IMG/VR virus record: IMGVR_UViG_3300033412_000644
DNA: 51,129 nucleotides
Source: a virus
Direction: 5' to 3' (one strand)
Numbering within the stretch: position 1 is the first letter of the stretch; the number at the start of each line of letters is the position of its first letter. The position numbers were made by a program, and so were the translations under genes. This document shows, piece after piece, positions 1 to 51,129 of the stretch. The notes below the pieces were generated by a model. That model saw only the letters and a program-made list of their open reading frames with translations. It was not told the DNA's origin and made no database searches.

Positions 1-2
1 GT

Positions 3-434
3 TTGCACACGCTGTATGCAGACGACCCGGTGACGGCGATCATGTTGTTGGGCGCCGCGCTGGAGCGGTGGAAGAAGGTGCTGCCTGACGCGTCCGTTTC
101 GCCGGCGGCGCAAGCGGTGATGAAGCGCTACTTCGATACGTACAAGGATGATCCTTCTCGAATCGAACTCAACGCAGACCCCGACCGCCCGAGCCACGGC
201 AAGTCGATCTGGCAGCCTGACGGCGATGACTTCTTGAAGGCAGCGTACCTGGGACCGGTGGGTTTCAACCTCGCCAAGGCATCCAGCTCCGGTGATCAAG
301 CGATCGACGCCGCCGTCGATCCCGCAACGCCGCCCGTCAAGGAAGCAGGTCGAGTGCGCGCCTGGTTGCAGATCGTCGCCAAGAAGGGCTTCGAGGCAGC
401 TTACGACGACGTCAAGCGAACCAAGATGTCGTGA
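3..434 (+). CDS. hypothetical protein (5' end outside window)
   Basis: Frame is open from the window edge. Non-repetitive 143-aa product, no recognisable motif. Confidence 0.4.
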   Translation: MHTLYADDPVTAIMLLGAALERWKKVLPDASVSPAAQAVMKRYFDTYKDDPSRIELNADPDRPSHGKSIWQPDGDDFLKAAYLGPVGFNLAKASSSGDQAIDAAVDPATPPVKEAGRVRAWLQIVAKKGFEAAYDDVKRTKMS

Positions 435-467
435 AACAGCGTTCTGCGACCGAAGTATGATGGTCGC

Positions 468-746
468 ATGGCAAAGAACGAAGCCCCCTCAATCGCCGAC
501 ATGCAGCCTGACGAGATCAACGCGCTCCGCGCCTTGGTCCAAGAGTTCATCGGCAAGGTCGAAGCAGTGGACAACGAGATCGAGCAGCTCAAGGAGGACC
601 GAAAGGACCTCATCGAGGACTACAAGTCGAAGCTCGACATGAAGACGCTGCAACAGGCCTTGAAGGTCATCAAGATCCAGCGCGAAGTCCAGCACAAGGA
701 CACCTTCGATCTTTTCATCGAAGCGCTCACAGATCCCGCTCAGTGA
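468..746 (+). CDS. GapR-like / DUF2312-family coiled-coil DNA-binding protein
   Basis: 92 aa. Pattern resembles Caulobacter GapR (LKSIIDRVERLE...KVLKKVVRIRKQDR...DLYLSAI versus LRALVQEFIGKVE...KTLQQALKVIKIQREVQ...DLFIEAL). This family is typical of alphaproteobacteria and their phages. Confidence 0.5.
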   Translation: MAKNEAPSIADMQPDEINALRALVQEFIGKVEAVDNEIEQLKEDRKDLIEDYKSKLDMKTLQQALKVIKIQREVQHKDTFDLFIEALTDPAQ

Positions 747-775
747 GCGGTTGACCTTCCTACCTACATCATACG

Positions 776-48314: not shown

Positions 48315-48339
48315 GATGTTTTGGGTTCCTTTCCCTTCT

Positions 48340-48385
48340 AATGGGCTAAGCCCCGCGGCCACTGAAGACCGCGGGGCGAAGCTAC
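48340..48385 (-). repeat. copy B of duplicated intergenic stem-loop module
   Basis: 9-bp GC stem at 48350-48358 and 48369-48377. Same flanks as copy A, followed by an AAGGAA-type Shine-Dalgarno for the flotillin gene. Confidence 0.55.
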
Positions 48386-48395
48386 CGGTTGTTGC

Positions 48396-51092
48396 TCAGT
48401 CGTTGTTGGATGCCGATCGGCTGCGCGGCTTCGCCGACAGGCCGGTCGTCGTGGTCGCCGAACCGTTCATCGCCGGCTCGAGCTGCTTGGCGAGGGCGGT
48501 GCCCTCCAGCAACTTCTTCAGCACATCGACGACGCTGCCGCCGCCGAGGATGCTGAGGGGTGCCATCGCCTCGGACACCTTCTCCACCATGGCGCGTTCG
48601 CCGAAGGAGTTGAGGGCCGCGATGAGGTCGGGGCTGACGGCCTTCGCCTTTTCGACGAGGGCGGTGACCTGCGCCTCGAGCTTCGCCAGCTCGAGAGCCT
48701 GGTTCGCCTTCGCCTGTTCGAGGCGCTGAGCGTCCGTTGCCTGCTGCACCTGGAGCTGCACTGCCGTCTGCTCGGCCTGTGCCTTCTCGTTGGCGAGCTG
48801 CAGCGCCGCCTGTGCCGCCGCAGACTCGCTCGCCTTGGCGATGCGCTCCTGCTCCGACTTGGACGCCGTCTCGATCCGAGTCAGGTCGAGCTCCAGCTGT
48901 CGGCGCGCGGCCTCGGCCTCGAGCAGCATCTTCTGCCTGCTGGTCTCGGCGTTGGTCTCGGCGACCTGGCGCTTGATCTCCTCAGACTCCTGGATGTAGG
49001 CGAGCTTGCGGCGCTCGCCGGCCAGGATGAGGGTGTTCTGGATGACCTCGCGCTGCTGGGCGACGAGCATCTTCTCCACGTCGGAGTTCTGCATCTGGAC
49101 ACCGAGGACCTCGACGTCGTAGATGCGCATGCCGTTCTCGGCGAAGGTGGTGCCGGCTCGCGGCTTGCCATCGCCCGTCGACTTGCCGAGGATGATGTCC
49201 CGGAGAATCTCGGTGTGGTTGCTGTAGAAGTCCTCGATGTTGAGCTTCTGCACCGCGTTGCGGAGCTTCGAGCGCATGTGGTCACAGAGGAACTTGACGT
49301 AGTTGTCGACGTTGAACCACAGCGATGAGTCACCTTCGAAGTTGACTCGGTAGCTCAGCTTGACGTTGAGCCTGCAGTAGTCCTTGGTCTCGACTTCGAC
49401 GATGTCGCTGACCACATTGTTCTTGACCTGGAGATAGACCGTCTGGAACGGCTTGTCCATCGTCTTCGGCTTGCCGGTCGACAGGGTCATCACCTGCGGA
49501 ACCTCGTCGTACTCGAGCATGAAGGTGCCCGGACCCTGTACGAGGCGACGGTCGTTGCCTCGCACCAGCAGCATGGCGAAGTTGGTGTACGGCTTGACCG
49601 TGACCGCTCCGTCGTACTTGGTGTTGAGGATGACGCTGCGGGGAGCCGTGAACTTCGACTTGCGGTCGAAGGCGTCACCCGGCAGTGCCTTGCTCGAGCC
49701 CTTGATCATGAAGCCGCGGCGCGCACCCTCGGGGGTGGCGACGGCAGCGACTGCTGCGTAGGCCTCGTTCTCGGTCTCGCTTCGGACGTAGTTGGAGTTG
49801 AGGAACGCCGCGTTGGCGCCCGCTGCTCCGAGGTAGTCCTGATCCTCGACGCCGAGGCGCTCCGCGTTGATGGCGAGGGCGATGTCGTTGCCGGGGTAGA
49901 TGAGGGAACACAGGTTCAGCGGCAGTGCCCGCTGAGCGATGACCTGGCTGCGAGGATCCGGGAGGAAGATCTTCGGTCCCTGGATGATGGTCACTTCGCC
50001 GGTGAGGCGATTGAGCACGTACCGAGCCTCGCCCGCCGGGATGGCGATGCCGAAGTGGACGTCCTGCTCACCGTACTTGATGATGGCGTGCTCCTCGCGG
50101 GGGAAGTACACCGGGTCGGTCGCGCCGGTGATGAACAGCTCCTCACCCGCCTTGCGCTCGGTGCCGTCCTCTTCGGTGTAGGCAGCGATGACGCGGATGT
50201 GAATGCCGCTCGTCGGCGTCAGCTCCTGCGCCCGGAACTTCTTGGCTCGCGCCTTGTCCGGGTTGGACTTGATCGCCGCGTCGACGAACTTCTCGGTCGG
50301 CTTCGGGAAGACGACGGCCGGGCCACGAACGTAGCGCTTGTTGCCGTCCTGGTCGAGCAGGAGGCAGTACTCCAAACGCTCGAGCGATACGGCCTCGCGG
50401 ACGTACTTGTCACCCTCGGTGACGACCTCGATGCCGGTGGGCGGGATGTAGAAGGAGACCTCGGTGCCGCGGACAACGAACAGCTTGCCCATCGACAGGT
50501 CCTTCTCGGTCGGGATGTCGCTGGACGTCCTCTGCTCAGAAGCTGCCTTGCGGGACTTCGCTGCCGTCGGCGATTCCGATTCGGTCGTCGTGGTGACGGC
50601 GTCGGTCTGCGTCTTGATGACAGCCTTGCTCCAGTTCGCTCGCGCCGCTTCCTCGTCGTACACCCTGCAGAGCAGGTACTCGTTGGAACGGAGGGAGTGA
50701 CCCTGGACGACCTTGGCCATCTGGCCTGGCCACAACGCGAAGGACGCGGGACCGGAGATGTTGATCTTCTTGCCGACGCGGAGGTTGGGCGTCGACAGCT
50801 TGCCGTTACCGGACGGGTGCTTGTCGTTCTCGGCCGGGTTCTTGAGGACGATGTACCAGCCTTCGGGTGCGGTCTGGAACGTCTGAATGCCGGTTGCGAA
50901 GTCCGTCGGGCGGAATCGCTTCGTCTTCAAGTCGAACGTCACGCACCTGTCGGTGCCAGCGAGGCTCTGCTTGTTGGGGCCGACGAAGGCATTGACTTCG
51001 CCCTTGGTCTCGTCACTGATGAAGGCGTATTCGTTGGGAGCAAGAATCATGTCTCGCTCACGACGTCCGCCACGGGTATCTTCTTCCGACAT
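48396..51092 (-). CDS. major vault protein (MVP) homolog
   Basis: Colinear similarity to eukaryotic MVP. N terminus MILAPNEYAFISDETKGEVNAFVGPNK matches [27 protein letters not shown]. Shoulder domain VKLSYRVNFE...FNVDNYVKFLCDHMRSKLRNAVQKLNIEDF matches LQLAYNWHFE...[30 protein letters not shown]. Cap-helix coiled coil and C-terminal PDLIAALNSFGERAMVEKV...LGGGSVVDVLKKLL match GTIRDLAVAGPEMQVKLL...STAFGLL. GAGGAG Shine-Dalgarno 4 nt upstream. Confidence 0.8.
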   Translation of the reverse strand: MSEEDTRGGRRERDMILAPNEYAFISDETKGEVNAFVGPNKQSLAGTDRCVTFDLKTKRFRPTDFATGIQTFQTAPEGWYIVLKNPAENDKHPSGNGKLSTPNLRVGKKINISGPASFALWPGQMAKVVQGHSLRSNEYLLCRVYDEEAARANWSKAVIKTQTDAVTTTTESESPTAAKSRKAASEQRTSSDIPTEKDLSMGKLFVVRGTEVSFYIPPTGIEVVTEGDKYVREAVSLERLEYCLLLDQDGNKRYVRGPAVVFPKPTEKFVDAAIKSNPDKARAKKFRAQELTPTSGIHIRVIAAYTEEDGTERKAGEELFITGATDPVYFPREEHAIIKYGEQDVHFGIAIPAGEARYVLNRLTGEVTIIQGPKIFLPDPRSQVIAQRALPLNLCSLIYPGNDIALAINAERLGVEDQDYLGAAGANAAFLNSNYVRSETENEAYAAVAAVATPEGARRGFMIKGSSKALPGDAFDRKSKFTAPRSVILNTKYDGAVTVKPYTNFAMLLVRGNDRRLVQGPGTFMLEYDEVPQVMTLSTGKPKTMDKPFQTVYLQVKNNVVSDIVEVETKDYCRLNVKLSYRVNFEGDSSLWFNVDNYVKFLCDHMRSKLRNAVQKLNIEDFYSNHTEILRDIILGKSTGDGKPRAGTTFAENGMRIYDVEVLGVQMQNSDVEKMLVAQQREVIQNTLILAGERRKLAYIQESEEIKRQVAETNAETSRQKMLLEAEAARRQLELDLTRIETASKSEQERIAKASESAAAQAALQLANEKAQAEQTAVQLQVQQATDAQRLEQAKANQALELAKLEAQVTALVEKAKAVSPDLIAALNSFGERAMVEKVSEAMAPLSILGGGSVVDVLKKLLEGTALAKQLEPAMNGSATTTTGLSAKPRSRSASNND

Positions 51093-51129
51093 TGTGTCTC
51101 CTCTTTCCTTGGTGTGATTGATCGCCGTC

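What the first reader, a model, noticed from the sequence alone, without database searches (positions are those of the whole stretch)
1..51129. Element identity: accessory region of a large T4-like/jumbo phage of a high-GC (alpha?)proteobacterium, not a cellular or giant-virus locus
The gene density is extreme, with genes of roughly 60 to 500 aa packed with ATGA or TGATG overlaps, frequent GTG starts and good Shine-Dalgarno sites. The window carries T4-type RNase H, a standalone groEL, an extended infA and a GapR/DUF2312-like protein, and no ribosomal, tRNA or core metabolic operon context. Several gene families usually regarded as eukaryotic (MVP, TANGO2/NRDE, a vSET-like minimal SET domain, MBD4-like glycosylase, UDPGP, Thg1-like) are embedded in prokaryotic expression signals. 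That suggests a very large phage with an unusually eukaryote-flavoured accessory repertoire.
Basis: inference. Interest (0 to 1): 0.6.

Follow-up and report, generated by a model that had tools for sequence, protein, structure and literature searches.

The report
Soil jumbo phage accessory gene region
This 51-kb contig is a stretch of accessory genes from an uncultivated jumbo phage of about 358 kb, probably from soil, whose lineage has a T4-type head. It carries its own chaperonin, translation factor, DNA-repair enzymes and a full-length vault-protein homologue, and is a new member of an already described kind of huge phage.

Summary
The window has about 103 tightly packed genes (94% coding, median 111 aa, ATGA/GTGA/TGATG junctions, Shine-Dalgarno sites) and no tRNA or Rfam hit.

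The identity is largely settled. The window is a whole JGI metagenome contig. Its two ends, the only parts compared, are 98% identical or collinear with a 357,674-nt ENA contig. MVP homologues at 60-79% identity sit on 294-351-kb contigs, and 80 IMG/VR viral contigs carry relatives. One relative, IMGVR_UViG_3300005529_000001 (369,475 nt), has the same MVP-SPFH pair (68% and 79% identity). It also has a gp23-type capsid protein and a gp21 prohead protease.

So this is an accessory region of a jumbo phage whose lineage has a T4-type head. No hallmark gene was seen on this phage itself, within the roughly 68 kb I could view.

The host is unresolved, and the alphaproteobacterial guess rests only on the sub-threshold GapR-like hit. 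The "eukaryotic flavour" is typical of published huge phages.

Verdict: ordinary as a class and new as a lineage. The MVP and a family of small capsid-fragment proteins are the most interesting parts.

The parts
468..746 (+). Small coiled-coil protein, GapR/UPF0335-like (weak)
   Evidence: Pfam GapR_DNA-bd E 3e-3, 17.5 bits, below the cut-off of 22.6. NCBIfam PRK13694 16 bits. No PDB GapR hit. JGI name 'UPF0335 family'.
776..2128 (+). Isocitrate lyase (AceA type), 450 aa
   Evidence: NCBIfam NF011645, 681 bits against a cut-off of 562. Pfam ICL E 8e-90. The identical protein is on the 357,674-nt ENA contig.
2938..3201 (+). 87-aa protein with N-terminal leader MRITLRQLRDLISE (candidate capsid-targeting/propeptide-like leader)
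   Evidence: The motif is shared with genes at 10099 and 37937 and with ORFs in relatives. The function is inferred.
3214..3741 (+). Rubrerythrin/ferritin-like protein
   Evidence: Pfam Rubrerythrin E 9e-9.
5107..5871 (+). Thg1-like tRNA-His guanylyltransferase family protein
   Evidence: Pfam Thg1 E 3e-28. phrog_4717 E 8e-84. 42-48% identical to copies in many large phages.
6343..6759 (+). EamA-like membrane protein
   Evidence: Pfam EamA E 4e-15.
7026..7841 (+). 5'-3' exonuclease/FEN, T4 RNase H type
   Evidence: Pfam 5_3_exonuc_N E 4e-18. Best PDB hit is T4 RNase H 1tfr, E 2e-12.
10099..10929 (+). 276-aa protein with leader MRIRLGDLRRLIINE; matches phrog_26930
12059..12859 (+). Papain-family (C1) cysteine peptidase
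   Evidence: Pfam Peptidase_C1 E 9e-18.
13625..14146 (+). NUDIX hydrolase
   Evidence: Pfam NUDIX E 3e-21. phrog_1198 E 4e-26.
15070..16167 (+). UDPGP-family sugar-1-phosphate nucleotidyltransferase
   Evidence: Pfam UDPGP E 8e-20. Best PDB hits are eukaryote-type UAP/UGP enzymes, E 2e-8.
16155..16595 (+). MBD4-type HhH-GPD mismatch DNA glycosylase
   Evidence: Matches the PDB MBD4 glycosylase domain, E 4e-23, over residues 5-140 of 146.
16870..17673 (-). Trypsin-like serine protease with a lipobox signal peptide
   Evidence: Pfam Trypsin_2 E 1e-14. The N-terminus reads ...LFSALAGC.
17751..18617 (+). Fpg/Nei DNA glycosylase
   Evidence: Pfam H2TH and Fapy_DNA_glyco. TIGR00577 E 1e-44, below the equivalog cut-off. 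phrog_21295 E 5e-39.
18630..19379 (+). VWA-domain protein
   Evidence: phrog_7371 E 1e-63. Pfam VWA_2 weak.
20200..20535 (+). Minimal SET-domain methyltransferase (111 aa)
   Evidence: Pfam SET E 2e-7. Best PDB hit is the KMT2A SET domain, E 3e-8.
21008..21913 (+). ADP-ribosylglycohydrolase
   Evidence: Pfam ADP_ribosyl_GH E 5e-29.
23359..24171 (+). TANGO2/NRDE-family protein
   Evidence: Pfam TANGO2 E 2e-31.
24820..26319 (+). AAA+ ATPase
   Evidence: Pfam AAA E 2e-14.
27159..28784 (+). Chaperonin GroEL, with no GroES nearby
   Evidence: TIGR02348, 639 bits against a cut-off of 582. phrog_5725 E 1e-156. No Cpn10 hit in the window.
33146..33409 (+). Translation initiation factor IF-1 with about 17 extra N-terminal residues
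   Evidence: TIGR00008, 90 bits against a cut-off of 61, matching residues 18-85.
35032..35835 (-). NinI-like Ser/Thr phosphatase (metallophosphoesterase)
   Evidence: Pfam Metallophos E 3e-16. phrog_246 E 6e-35.
37937..38245 (+). 102-aa protein with leader MKLTIRQLRRLIRE
38281..38649 (-). Stand-alone response-regulator receiver domain
   Evidence: Pfam Response_reg E 6e-10.
39576..41175 (-). Tandem paralogous small genes (39576-40058, 40051-40485, 40494-40784, 40771-41175); the gene at 44266-44613 is related
   Evidence: All-against-all blastp: g84/g85 E 4e-13, g85/g87 E 6e-7, g87/g96 E 4e-5. g86 (40494-40784) is included only for a shared C-terminal motif seen by eye, not by blastp.
43342..43776 (-). 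144-aa protein: small beta domain fused to a segment homologous to T4 gp23 residues 226-288
   Evidence: Pfam Gp23 E 4e-8. PDB gp23 E 2e-5. Belongs to a family of small ORFs; the one context viewed (P0146, 174 aa) is a complete gene inside its contig. AF2 gives pLDDT 96-98 for residues 1-50.
46392..48314 (-). SPFH/Band-7 (flotillin-like) membrane protein next to the MVP
   Evidence: Pfam Band_7 E 8e-28. 79% identical in the 369-kb relative, also adjacent to the MVP there.
48396..51092 (-). Full-length major vault protein homologue, 898 aa
   Evidence: Pfam MVP_shoulder E 4e-30, plus Vault and Vault_3. PDB MVP E 1e-21. AF2 model; the top 12 Foldseek hits are all MVP, E 2e-24, 800-940 aligned columns.

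Best explanation
The window is an accessory ('auxiliary') part of the genome of an uncultivated tailed jumbo phage of about 358 kb. It is probably from soil, has 60% GC, and belongs to a large clade with a T4-type head module (gp23 capsid protein, gp21 prohead protease, gp20 portal).

The genes are expressed from bacterial-type signals in long co-directional blocks. The + strand runs from 1 to 30.1 kb, the region 30-38 kb is mixed, and the - strand runs from 38.3 to 51.1 kb.

The following roles are inferred from the families present. They would let the phage run and protect its own infection cycle:
- GroEL for folding. In T4, gp23 is a GroEL client; this is established knowledge, not tested here.
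- IF-1 and a Thg1-like tRNA 5'-end repair enzyme for translation.
- RNase H/FEN, Fpg/Nei and an MBD4-type glycosylase for replication and repair.
- ADP-ribosylglycohydrolase and NUDIX for ADP-ribose/NAD-linked conflicts with host defence.
- Isocitrate lyase to redirect carbon flow.
- Proteases, a phosphatase, a receiver domain and a SET methyltransferase to modify host proteins.
- An MVP plus SPFH pair that probably forms a large scaffold or cage.
- Dozens of small beta-barrel proteins of unknown role.

Shown here: the gene content, the genome size class, the viral relatives, and the T4-type head genes in a relative. Inferred: the roles of individual genes.
For: - Same phage on a large contig. 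An MVP in the same 90% cluster lies on ENA contig k133_3844997, 357,674 nt. Its last 20.6 kb is 98% identical to window 38742-51129. Record positions 289,571-310,923 are collinear with window 1-12 kb and encode the identical isocitrate lyase.
- Relatives are jumbo-sized and viral. MVP homologues at 60-79% identity sit on contigs of 294-351 kb. 80 IMG/VR UViGs carry MVP relatives. The published huge phages LR756500/1/3 have MVP at 41-44% identity.
- Hallmark link. IMGVR_UViG_3300005529_000001 (369,475 nt) has MVP at 68% and the adjacent SPFH at 79% identity to the window's pair. It also has Gp23 (E 6e-78) and Peptidase_S77 (E 2e-24).
- The same capsid-protein clade is found on contigs of 359,321 and 359,340 nt with T4 portal, gp21, scaffold and gp23 (361,059 nt). 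It also occurs on contigs of 297-314 kb.
- Phage families in the window: phrog_4717, 5725, 7371, 10079, 21295 and 246; T4 RNase H as best structural relative; a gp23 fragment.
- No tRNA, rRNA or Rfam hit, and the gene-density figures.
Against: - No terminase, portal, capsid or tail gene lies in the window, in the 9 kb upstream, or in the 8 kb beyond the MVP on the 357,674-nt contig.
- The T4-type head genes are shown on a relative (68% MVP identity), not on this phage's own contig.
- There is no DNA similarity to any GenBank phage, and isolates share only scattered genes.
- Some MVP relatives are binned in bacterial MAGs, though one of those contigs carries a phage RNA-polymerase-like gene.
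- The host is unknown.
Confidence: 0.9

Rival explanations
1. It is a jumbo phage but not of T4 type (for example phiKZ-like, or another huge-phage clade). On this reading the gp23 fragment and RNase H were acquired horizontally, and the MVP-SPFH pair moved between lineages.
For: MVP occurs in very different huge phages. These include a Bacteroidia-binned contig with a multisubunit RNA-polymerase beta-like gene and LR756501 at 735 kb. The gp23 fragment has only two close homologues. No head gene was seen on this phage itself.
Against: The relative that carries Gp23 and gp21 shares both MVP (68%) and SPFH (79%) in the same order. The fragment's gp23-like segment scores better against that clade's capsid protein (E 1e-10) than against RB49 gp23 (E 7e-9) in small local searches of different size; it also shares the clade's ARWS motif, which T4 and RB49 lack. 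Leaders ending in L/I-x-E fit a gp21-type protease (the cleavage rule is from my own knowledge).
Confidence: 0.07
2. It is cellular DNA: a bacterial chromosome island, or a prophage-like region of a high-GC bacterium.
For: The window carries genuine cellular-type genes (GroEL, IF-1, isocitrate lyase, Fpg), which pass or approach curated cut-offs. Some MVP relatives lie in MAG bins.
Against: Median gene length is 111 aa and most genes are orphans. There is no tRNA, rRNA or ribosomal protein. The carrying contig ends at 357,674 nt, with phage-like small genes up to its end. Related contigs cluster at 294-369 kb rather than at Mb scale. The relatives are IMG/VR viral genomes with T4 head genes.
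Confidence: 0.02
3. It is a giant eukaryotic virus (NCLDV-like) or eukaryotic DNA, which would account for MVP, SET, TANGO2, MBD4 and UDPGP.
For: The best solved relatives of MVP, SET, MBD4 and UDPGP are eukaryotic proteins.
Against: Shine-Dalgarno motifs lie 5-8 nt upstream of starts. There are 21 ATGA/GTGA/TGATG overlaps and 25% GTG starts. GroEL and IF-1 are of bacterial type. Phage families are present. The window's MVP is only 17-19% identical to eukaryotic MVP; a preprint found two gut-phage MVPs to be closest to bacterial homologues. The relatives are tailed-phage genomes.
Confidence: 0.005
4. It is a large plasmid or another non-viral extrachromosomal element (Borg-like).
For: It is a large element rich in accessory genes and hypothetical proteins. 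MVP is also mentioned in Borg papers.
Against: There are no replication-partition or conjugation families in the Pfam scan. The lineage has T4 head genes. A gp23 fragment and T4-type RNase H are present.
Confidence: 0.005

Closest known systems
Metagenomic 'huge phages' (GenBank LR756500, LR756501/3, LR756508; the attribution to Al-Shayeb et al. 2020 is from memory, and a search for the accession found no paper) and the Huge Phage Genome Collection (bioRxiv 10.1101/2025.02.27.640493)
   Same: The genome size class is the same. They carry MVP (41-44% identity) and GroEL. The gp23-type capsid protein of the related clade is 53% identical to that of LR756508. Isocitrate lyase has been reported in 98 huge phages. 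IF-1-type translation genes are also typical, from my own knowledge.
   Different: There is no nucleotide similarity. The lineage is distinct at 60% GC, and most small genes are orphans.
T4-like phages (Straboviridae, e.g. T4 and RB49) and T4-core jumbo phages such as Xanthomonas phage XacN1
   Same: A relative has a gp23-family capsid protein and a gp21 protease. RNase H is closest to the T4 enzyme. Thg1-like genes are shared with XacN1 (three matching places).
   Different: The capsid protein is 630-650 aa with a large insertion and only about 30% identical to RB49 gp23. The genome is roughly twice the size of T4's. There is no T4 gene order around rnh. The T4 replication core was not examined.
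Eukaryotic major vault protein (rat and human vault, PDB 4V60, 9BW5)
   Same: The length is similar (898 aa). The domain order is the same: N-terminal repeats, shoulder, long cap helix.
   Different: Identity is 17-19%. It is encoded by a phage next to an SPFH membrane protein. No TEP1, PARP4 or vault RNA was found. Cage assembly is untested.
Phage MVPs of gut Caudoviricetes ctOa11 and ct2Ri15 (bioRxiv 10.1101/2023.11.10.566534)
   Same: Both are phage-encoded full-length MVP homologues that are closer to bacterial than to eukaryotic MVPs.
   Different: Those are gut phages placed near Bacillota-infecting phages. This one is a 60% GC jumbo phage, probably from soil, in a clade where MVP is conserved at 50-80% identity.
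T4 internal proteins with a capsid targeting sequence (review PMC3012670)
   Same: Unrelated proteins share only a short N-terminal leader (g5, g23, g79). The leader ends in L/I-x-E, and the lineage has a gp21-type protease.
   Different: The leader sequence differs from T4's MKTYQEFIAE (quoted from memory). Neither packaging nor cleavage has been shown.

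Membership tests
Jumbo/huge tailed phage (genome over 200 kb) | Genome longer than 200 kb | tested here: met
   A 357,674-nt contig is 98% identical to window 38742-51129 and collinear with window 1-12 kb. Relatives sit on 294-369-kb contigs.
Jumbo/huge tailed phage (genome over 200 kb) | Capsid, portal and terminase genes on the same genome | tested here: inconclusive
   None were seen in the window plus 17 kb of flanks. 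The remaining roughly 290 kb of the contig could not be read. They are present in a relative.
Jumbo/huge tailed phage (genome over 200 kb) | No cellular core (rRNA, tRNA operons, ribosomal proteins) in the region | tested here: met
T4-type head phages (gp23/gp20/gp21 module) | gp23-family major capsid protein | tested here: inconclusive
   The window has only a roughly 100-aa gp23-like fragment. Full-length Gp23 (E 6e-78) is on the 369,475-nt relative that shares the MVP-SPFH pair.
T4-type head phages (gp23/gp20/gp21 module) | gp21 prohead protease (Peptidase_S77) and gp20 portal | tested here: inconclusive
   The protease is on the 369-kb relative. Portal_T4 plus protease are on 359-kb genomes of the same capsid clade. 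Neither was seen on this phage.
T4-type head phages (gp23/gp20/gp21 module) | T4-type RNase H | tested here: met
   The best PDB match is T4 RNase H, E 2e-12, ahead of Taq and T5 FEN.
T4-type head phages (gp23/gp20/gp21 module) | T4 replication core (gp43, gp41, gp44/62, gp45, gp32) | not tested
   It lies outside every region I could read.
Major vault protein | N-terminal repeat domains | tested here: met
   Pfam Vault and Vault_3 hits fall below their gathering scores. Foldseek aligns the whole chain and also matches the R1-R7 crystal fragments, E 2e-5. The AF2 confidence in this region is only moderate.
Major vault protein | Shoulder domain followed by a long cap helix | tested here: met
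   MVP_shoulder E 4e-30. pLDDT is 80-93 over residues 500-740, with a helix spanning 670-815. The PDB MVP alignment covers 511-832.
Major vault protein | Assembly into a closed 78-mer cage with TEP1, PARP4 and vault RNA | not testable with these tools
   No TEP1 or PARP families appear in the window and there is no Rfam hit. Assembly needs an experiment.
GapR (DUF2312/UPF0335) | Score above the curated family thresholds | tested here: not met
   Pfam 17.5 bits against 22.6. NCBIfam PRK13694 16 bits against 94. No PDB GapR match at E up to 10. JGI nevertheless labels it UPF0335, so it is a distant relative at best.
Bacterial IF-1, GroEL, isocitrate lyase | Score above the NCBIfam equivalog cut-offs | tested here: met
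   IF-1 90 against 61, GroEL 639 against 582, isocitrate lyase 681 against 562.
Giant eukaryotic virus (NCLDV) | Eukaryote-type gene structure and NCLDV hallmark genes | tested here: not met
   The window has Shine-Dalgarno sites, overlapping start/stop junctions and GTG starts. No NCLDV families appear in the Pfam scans.

The most novel reading that the evidence does not exclude
The full-length MVP homologue, possibly with its neighbouring SPFH membrane protein, assembles a vault-like cage inside infected bacteria. On this reading a vault-type compartment is a conserved organelle of a large clade of jumbo phages with T4-type heads. The supporting facts are these. The MVP is kept at 50-80% identity across the clade. 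Relatives sit on 80 IMG/VR contigs, and there are more than 5000 metagenomic homologues. It has the strongest codon bias in the window (GC3 0.88). A secondary possibility is that the family of small proteins fusing a beta-barrel to a gp23-like segment acts on capsid assembly by mimicking the capsid protein.
Probability: 0.25. Interest if true: 0.75.

Novelty: new member of a known kind. Interest (0 to 1): 0.35.

Why it matters
As a classification the finding is ordinary. Huge phages that carry chaperonins, translation factors, repair enzymes, isocitrate lyase and even MVP have already been described. Its value is as an entry point in three respects.

- It ties a widespread metagenomic MVP family to a definable clade of roughly 300-370-kb phages with T4-type heads. 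This gives a bacterial-virus system in which the still unknown function of vault proteins could be tested.
- It shows candidate head-targeting leaders on otherwise unrelated proteins.
- It shows a recurring family of small proteins that contain a capsid-protein-like segment.

Tried and rejected
- Megablast of the whole window against GenBank phages found nothing.
- An exact-match scan of IMG/VR for the window's first 44 nt found nothing.
- Look-ups of the SPFH protein with two alternative starts found nothing on record.
- A search for capsid relatives with the gp23 fragment gave only two close homologues.
- A search for paralogous HNH copies, meant to jump elsewhere in the genome, gave none.
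- Repeated intergenic motifs of 14 nt or more, wanted as probes, do not exist in the window.
- RNase H and capsid protein P0172 used as single-protein probes of IMG/VR gave no loci.
- A match of contig lengths (141,862 against 141,863 nt) proved to be coincidence, with GC 0.59 against 0.42.
- Tetranucleotide similarity proved too GC-driven to link contigs.
- Host inference from isocitrate lyase failed: identity to Actinomycetota and Alphaproteobacteria is equal.
- The GTDB scan gave only three distant MAG contigs.
- PADLOC found no defence system.
- PHROGs found nothing for the flanking unknown genes.
- Foldseek found no fold match for the small gp23-fragment protein.
- I considered that the gp23-like ORF is a piece of a decayed capsid gene and rejected it. 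Only about 100 aa align, and there are no further fragments nearby.

Full report
**What is in the window**

The 51,129-nt window has an even GC content of 0.57-0.64. It has no tRNA or tmRNA and no Rfam family at gathering score.

A codon-usage gene call trained on the window's own long ORFs gives 103 genes covering 93.6% of the sequence. Median length is 111 aa. Genes 1-55 (3-30126) are nearly all on the + strand. Genes 80-103 (38281-51128) are all on the - strand, and the middle is mixed.

Start codons are ATG 73, GTG 26 and TTG 3. Of 93 same-strand junctions, 21 are ATGA, GTGA or TGATG overlaps. A GGAG/GAGG/AGGA core precedes 47% of the called starts, against 13% background, and peaks 5-8 nt upstream. 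With SD-blind longest-ORF starts the figure is 26%.

**The named families**

- T4-type RNase H/FEN, 7026-7841: best solved relative is T4 RNase H, E 2e-12.
- GroEL, 27159-28784: above the equivalog cut-off, with no Cpn10 nearby.
- IF-1, 33146-33409: above its cut-off, with about 17 extra N-terminal residues.
- Thg1-like, 5107-5871: phrog_4717, E 8e-84.
- UDPGP, 15070-16167.
- MBD4-type glycosylase, 16155-16595: E 4e-23 over its whole length.
- Minimal SET, 20200-20535.
- TANGO2, 23359-24171.
- MVP, 48396-51092.

The GapR-like call (468-746) is the weak one. It scores below both curated thresholds and has no PDB match, although JGI labels the protein UPF0335.

- a genuine isocitrate lyase, 776-2128, 681 bits against a cut-off of 562;
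- Fpg/Nei, NUDIX, ADP-ribosylglycohydrolase and a papain-like peptidase;
- a trypsin-like lipoprotein protease, a VWA protein and an AAA+ ATPase;
- a NinI-like phosphatase and a receiver domain;
- an SPFH protein next to the MVP.

**Where the window comes from**

The MVP cluster lists a longest contig of 51,129 nt from JGI, so the window is an entire metagenome contig. Identical proteins recur in JGI samples 3300031716 and 3300045391 and in three Logan runs. Sample 3300045391 is cited in a soil-metagenome paper.

A second member of the same 90% MVP cluster lies on ENA contig ERZ27274791 k133_3844997, which is 357,674 nt long. The last 20.6 kb of that contig is 98% identical to window 38742-51129. 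Record positions 289,571-310,923 are collinear with window 1-12 kb and encode the identical isocitrate lyase.

The window therefore corresponds to roughly 299-350 kb of a genome of about 358 kb. The middle of the window (12-38.7 kb) was not compared directly. The 9 kb before it and the 8 kb after it hold more accessory genes and no hallmark gene. These are CN-hydrolase, pterin dehydratase, NUDIX, HNH, AdoMet decarboxylase and a receiver domain.

**Is it a phage, and of what kind?**

No GenBank phage is similar at the DNA level. Isolates share only scattered genes, chiefly GroEL and Thg1-like.

The MVP has more than 5000 metagenomic homologues. Those at 60-79% identity sit on contigs of 294-351 kb. 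In GenBank, only the metagenomic huge phages LR756500/1/3 have it, at 41-44% identity. IMG/VR holds 80 viral contigs with relatives, most of them 100-480 kb.

To find the lineage's capsid gene I started from the gp23-like fragment in the window (43342-43776). Its conserved motif led to a clade of gp23-type capsid proteins of 630-650 aa. Members of this clade lie on contigs of 359,321 and 359,340 nt (361,059 nt by the cluster listing). These carry T4 portal (with an intein and HNH), gp21 protease, peptide deformylase, scaffold and gp23. Others lie on contigs of 297-314 kb.

A codon-biased motif scan then hit IMGVR_UViG_3300005529_000001, 369,475 nt. That contig had already been found through its MVP. 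It carries MVP at 68% and the adjacent SPFH protein at 79% identity to the window's pair. It also carries Gp23 (E 6e-78) and Peptidase_S77 (E 2e-24).

This is the direct link between the window's lineage and a T4-type head. It is shown in a relative, not on this phage's own contig. The clade's capsid protein is closest to huge phage LR756508 (53% identity) and only about 30-35% identical to classical T4-like phages.

**Host**

I found no usable host signal. Isocitrate lyase is about 62% identical to Streptomyces, Arthrobacter, Azospirillum and Sphingomonas copies alike. The GTDB scan returned only distant MVP contigs, binned as Lentisphaeria, Bacteroidia and Riflebacteria.

Use of Shine-Dalgarno sites argues against a Bacteroidota host; this step rests on general knowledge. 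The alphaproteobacterial guess rests only on the sub-threshold GapR-like protein.

**The 'eukaryotic' genes**

The MVP is a full-length homologue. An AlphaFold model built on 60 homologues is confident for the shoulder and for a 145-residue cap helix. Foldseek returns MVP chains as its top 12 hits, at E 2e-24 with 800-940 aligned columns and 17-19% identity. It also matches the R1-R7 repeat fragment.

Phage MVPs have been reported once before, in gut phages. Thg1-like genes are common in large phages. Isocitrate lyase is known from 98 huge phages. The repertoire is thus typical of huge phages rather than unusual.

**Things noticed on the way**

- Shared leader. Three unrelated proteins (starts at 2938, 10099 and 37937) share the N-terminal leader M[RK][IL]x[LIV]xxLRxL[IV]x(x)E. 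The same leader occurs on ORFs in two relatives, one of them next to the capsid gene. A T4 review says that T4 internal proteins share only a capsid targeting sequence. That gp21 cleaves after L/I-x-E is from my own knowledge. Head targeting is therefore an inference.
- gp23-fragment family. The gp23-fragment protein belongs to a family of small ORFs of 63-177 aa. The one whose context I viewed is a complete gene inside its contig. Each has a confidently predicted small beta domain (pLDDT 96-98) followed by a gp23-like segment that is not predicted to fold on its own. Foldseek finds no fold match.
- Homing endonuclease. In the 98%-identical ENA strain, a roughly 380-nt insertion that appears (by eye, not scanned) to encode an EndoVII/HNH-type homing endonuclease lies directly after this gene. 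It is absent from the window.
- N-terminal motif. Sixteen of 82 small proteins start with a PG[DETQAS]-hydrophobic-hydrophobic motif, against 0.7 expected from shuffles.
- Codon bias. MVP and SPFH have GC3 of 0.85-0.88, against 0.70-0.82 for most other genes.

**Verdict**

The window is an accessory region of an uncultivated jumbo phage of about 358 kb and 60% GC, probably from soil. It belongs to a clade with a T4-type head module. Confidence is about 0.9 for 'jumbo phage' and about 0.8 for 'T4-type head'.

It is a new member of a known kind. The main open items are the rest of the 357,674-nt contig, the host, and what the conserved MVP does.

Noticed in passing
window 776-2128 (+): A full-length AceA-type isocitrate lyase passes the NCBIfam equivalog cut-off. 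No malate synthase is adjacent. It is about 62% identical to actinobacterial and alphaproteobacterial copies alike.
   Followed up: yes
window 2938, 10099 and 37937 (starts, +); L019 near 6722 (-); L439 2846-3400 (-): Otherwise unrelated proteins share an N-terminal leader M[RK][IL]x[LIV]xxLRxL[IV]x(x)E. In a relative, one such ORF lies next to the gp23 capsid gene. It may be a T4-style capsid-targeting and gp21-cleavage leader.
   Followed up: partly
window 43342-43776 (-): This 144-aa protein is a confident small beta domain fused to a segment homologous to T4 gp23 residues 226-288. It belongs to a family of small ORFs (33 cluster representatives). The one whose context was viewed is a complete gene. 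The gp23-like part resembles the 630-aa capsid clade of this lineage. No fold match and no known function.
   Followed up: partly
L004 about 15660-16040, against window 43310-43346: The 98%-identical ENA strain has a roughly 380-nt insertion right after the gp23-fragment gene. Read by eye, it encodes an EndoVII/HNH-type homing endonuclease (not checked by a family scan). The window lacks it, so this is a presence/absence polymorphism of a mobile gene.
   Followed up: partly
window 5872-6138, 29152-30126, 30380-32559, 37657-37977 and 41175-45683 (16 genes): Sixteen of 82 small proteins begin with a PG[DETQAS]-hydrophobic-hydrophobic motif within 45 residues. One of the 16 is the IF-1 at 33146-33409. 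Shuffles give 0.7 +/- 0.8. This suggests a large expansion of small beta-barrel proteins.
   Followed up: partly
window 39576-41175 and 44266-44613 (-): A tandem paralogue family (g84, g85, g87, g96) shares a C-terminal ...LDL..LG..R..LD.FIQEEAKRL motif. Function unknown.
   Followed up: partly
window 46392-51092 (-): MVP and the adjacent SPFH gene have GC3 of 0.85-0.88, clearly above the rest of the window (about 0.70-0.82). The pair is also adjacent in the 369-kb relative, but not in more distant ones (L009, L011).
   Followed up: partly
window 10941-12062 (+): A 373-aa protein has a long Pro-rich (PAPEP-type) linker and a C-terminal hydrophobic helix. No family hit. It may be a cell-envelope-acting protein.
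   Followed up: no
L347 624-4067 (359,321-nt relative): The T4-type portal gene of the 359-kb phages carries an intein with an HNH endonuclease. A peptide deformylase sits inside the head module.
   Followed up: no
L007 16740-20543 (-) (contig binned as Bacteroidia): A distant MVP homologue (45% identity) lies 4 kb from a phage multisubunit RNA-polymerase beta-like gene (phrog_24349, E=0). MVP therefore also occurs in a different, RNAP-encoding kind of huge phage that has been mis-binned in a bacterial MAG.
   Followed up: partly
L438 (IMGVR_UViG_3300045391_004221, 43,828 nt): A contig from the same soil sample that holds this phage carries a capsid protein 88% identical to the clade reference (L142). 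It may be this phage's own capsid contig, but I could not prove it.
   Followed up: partly
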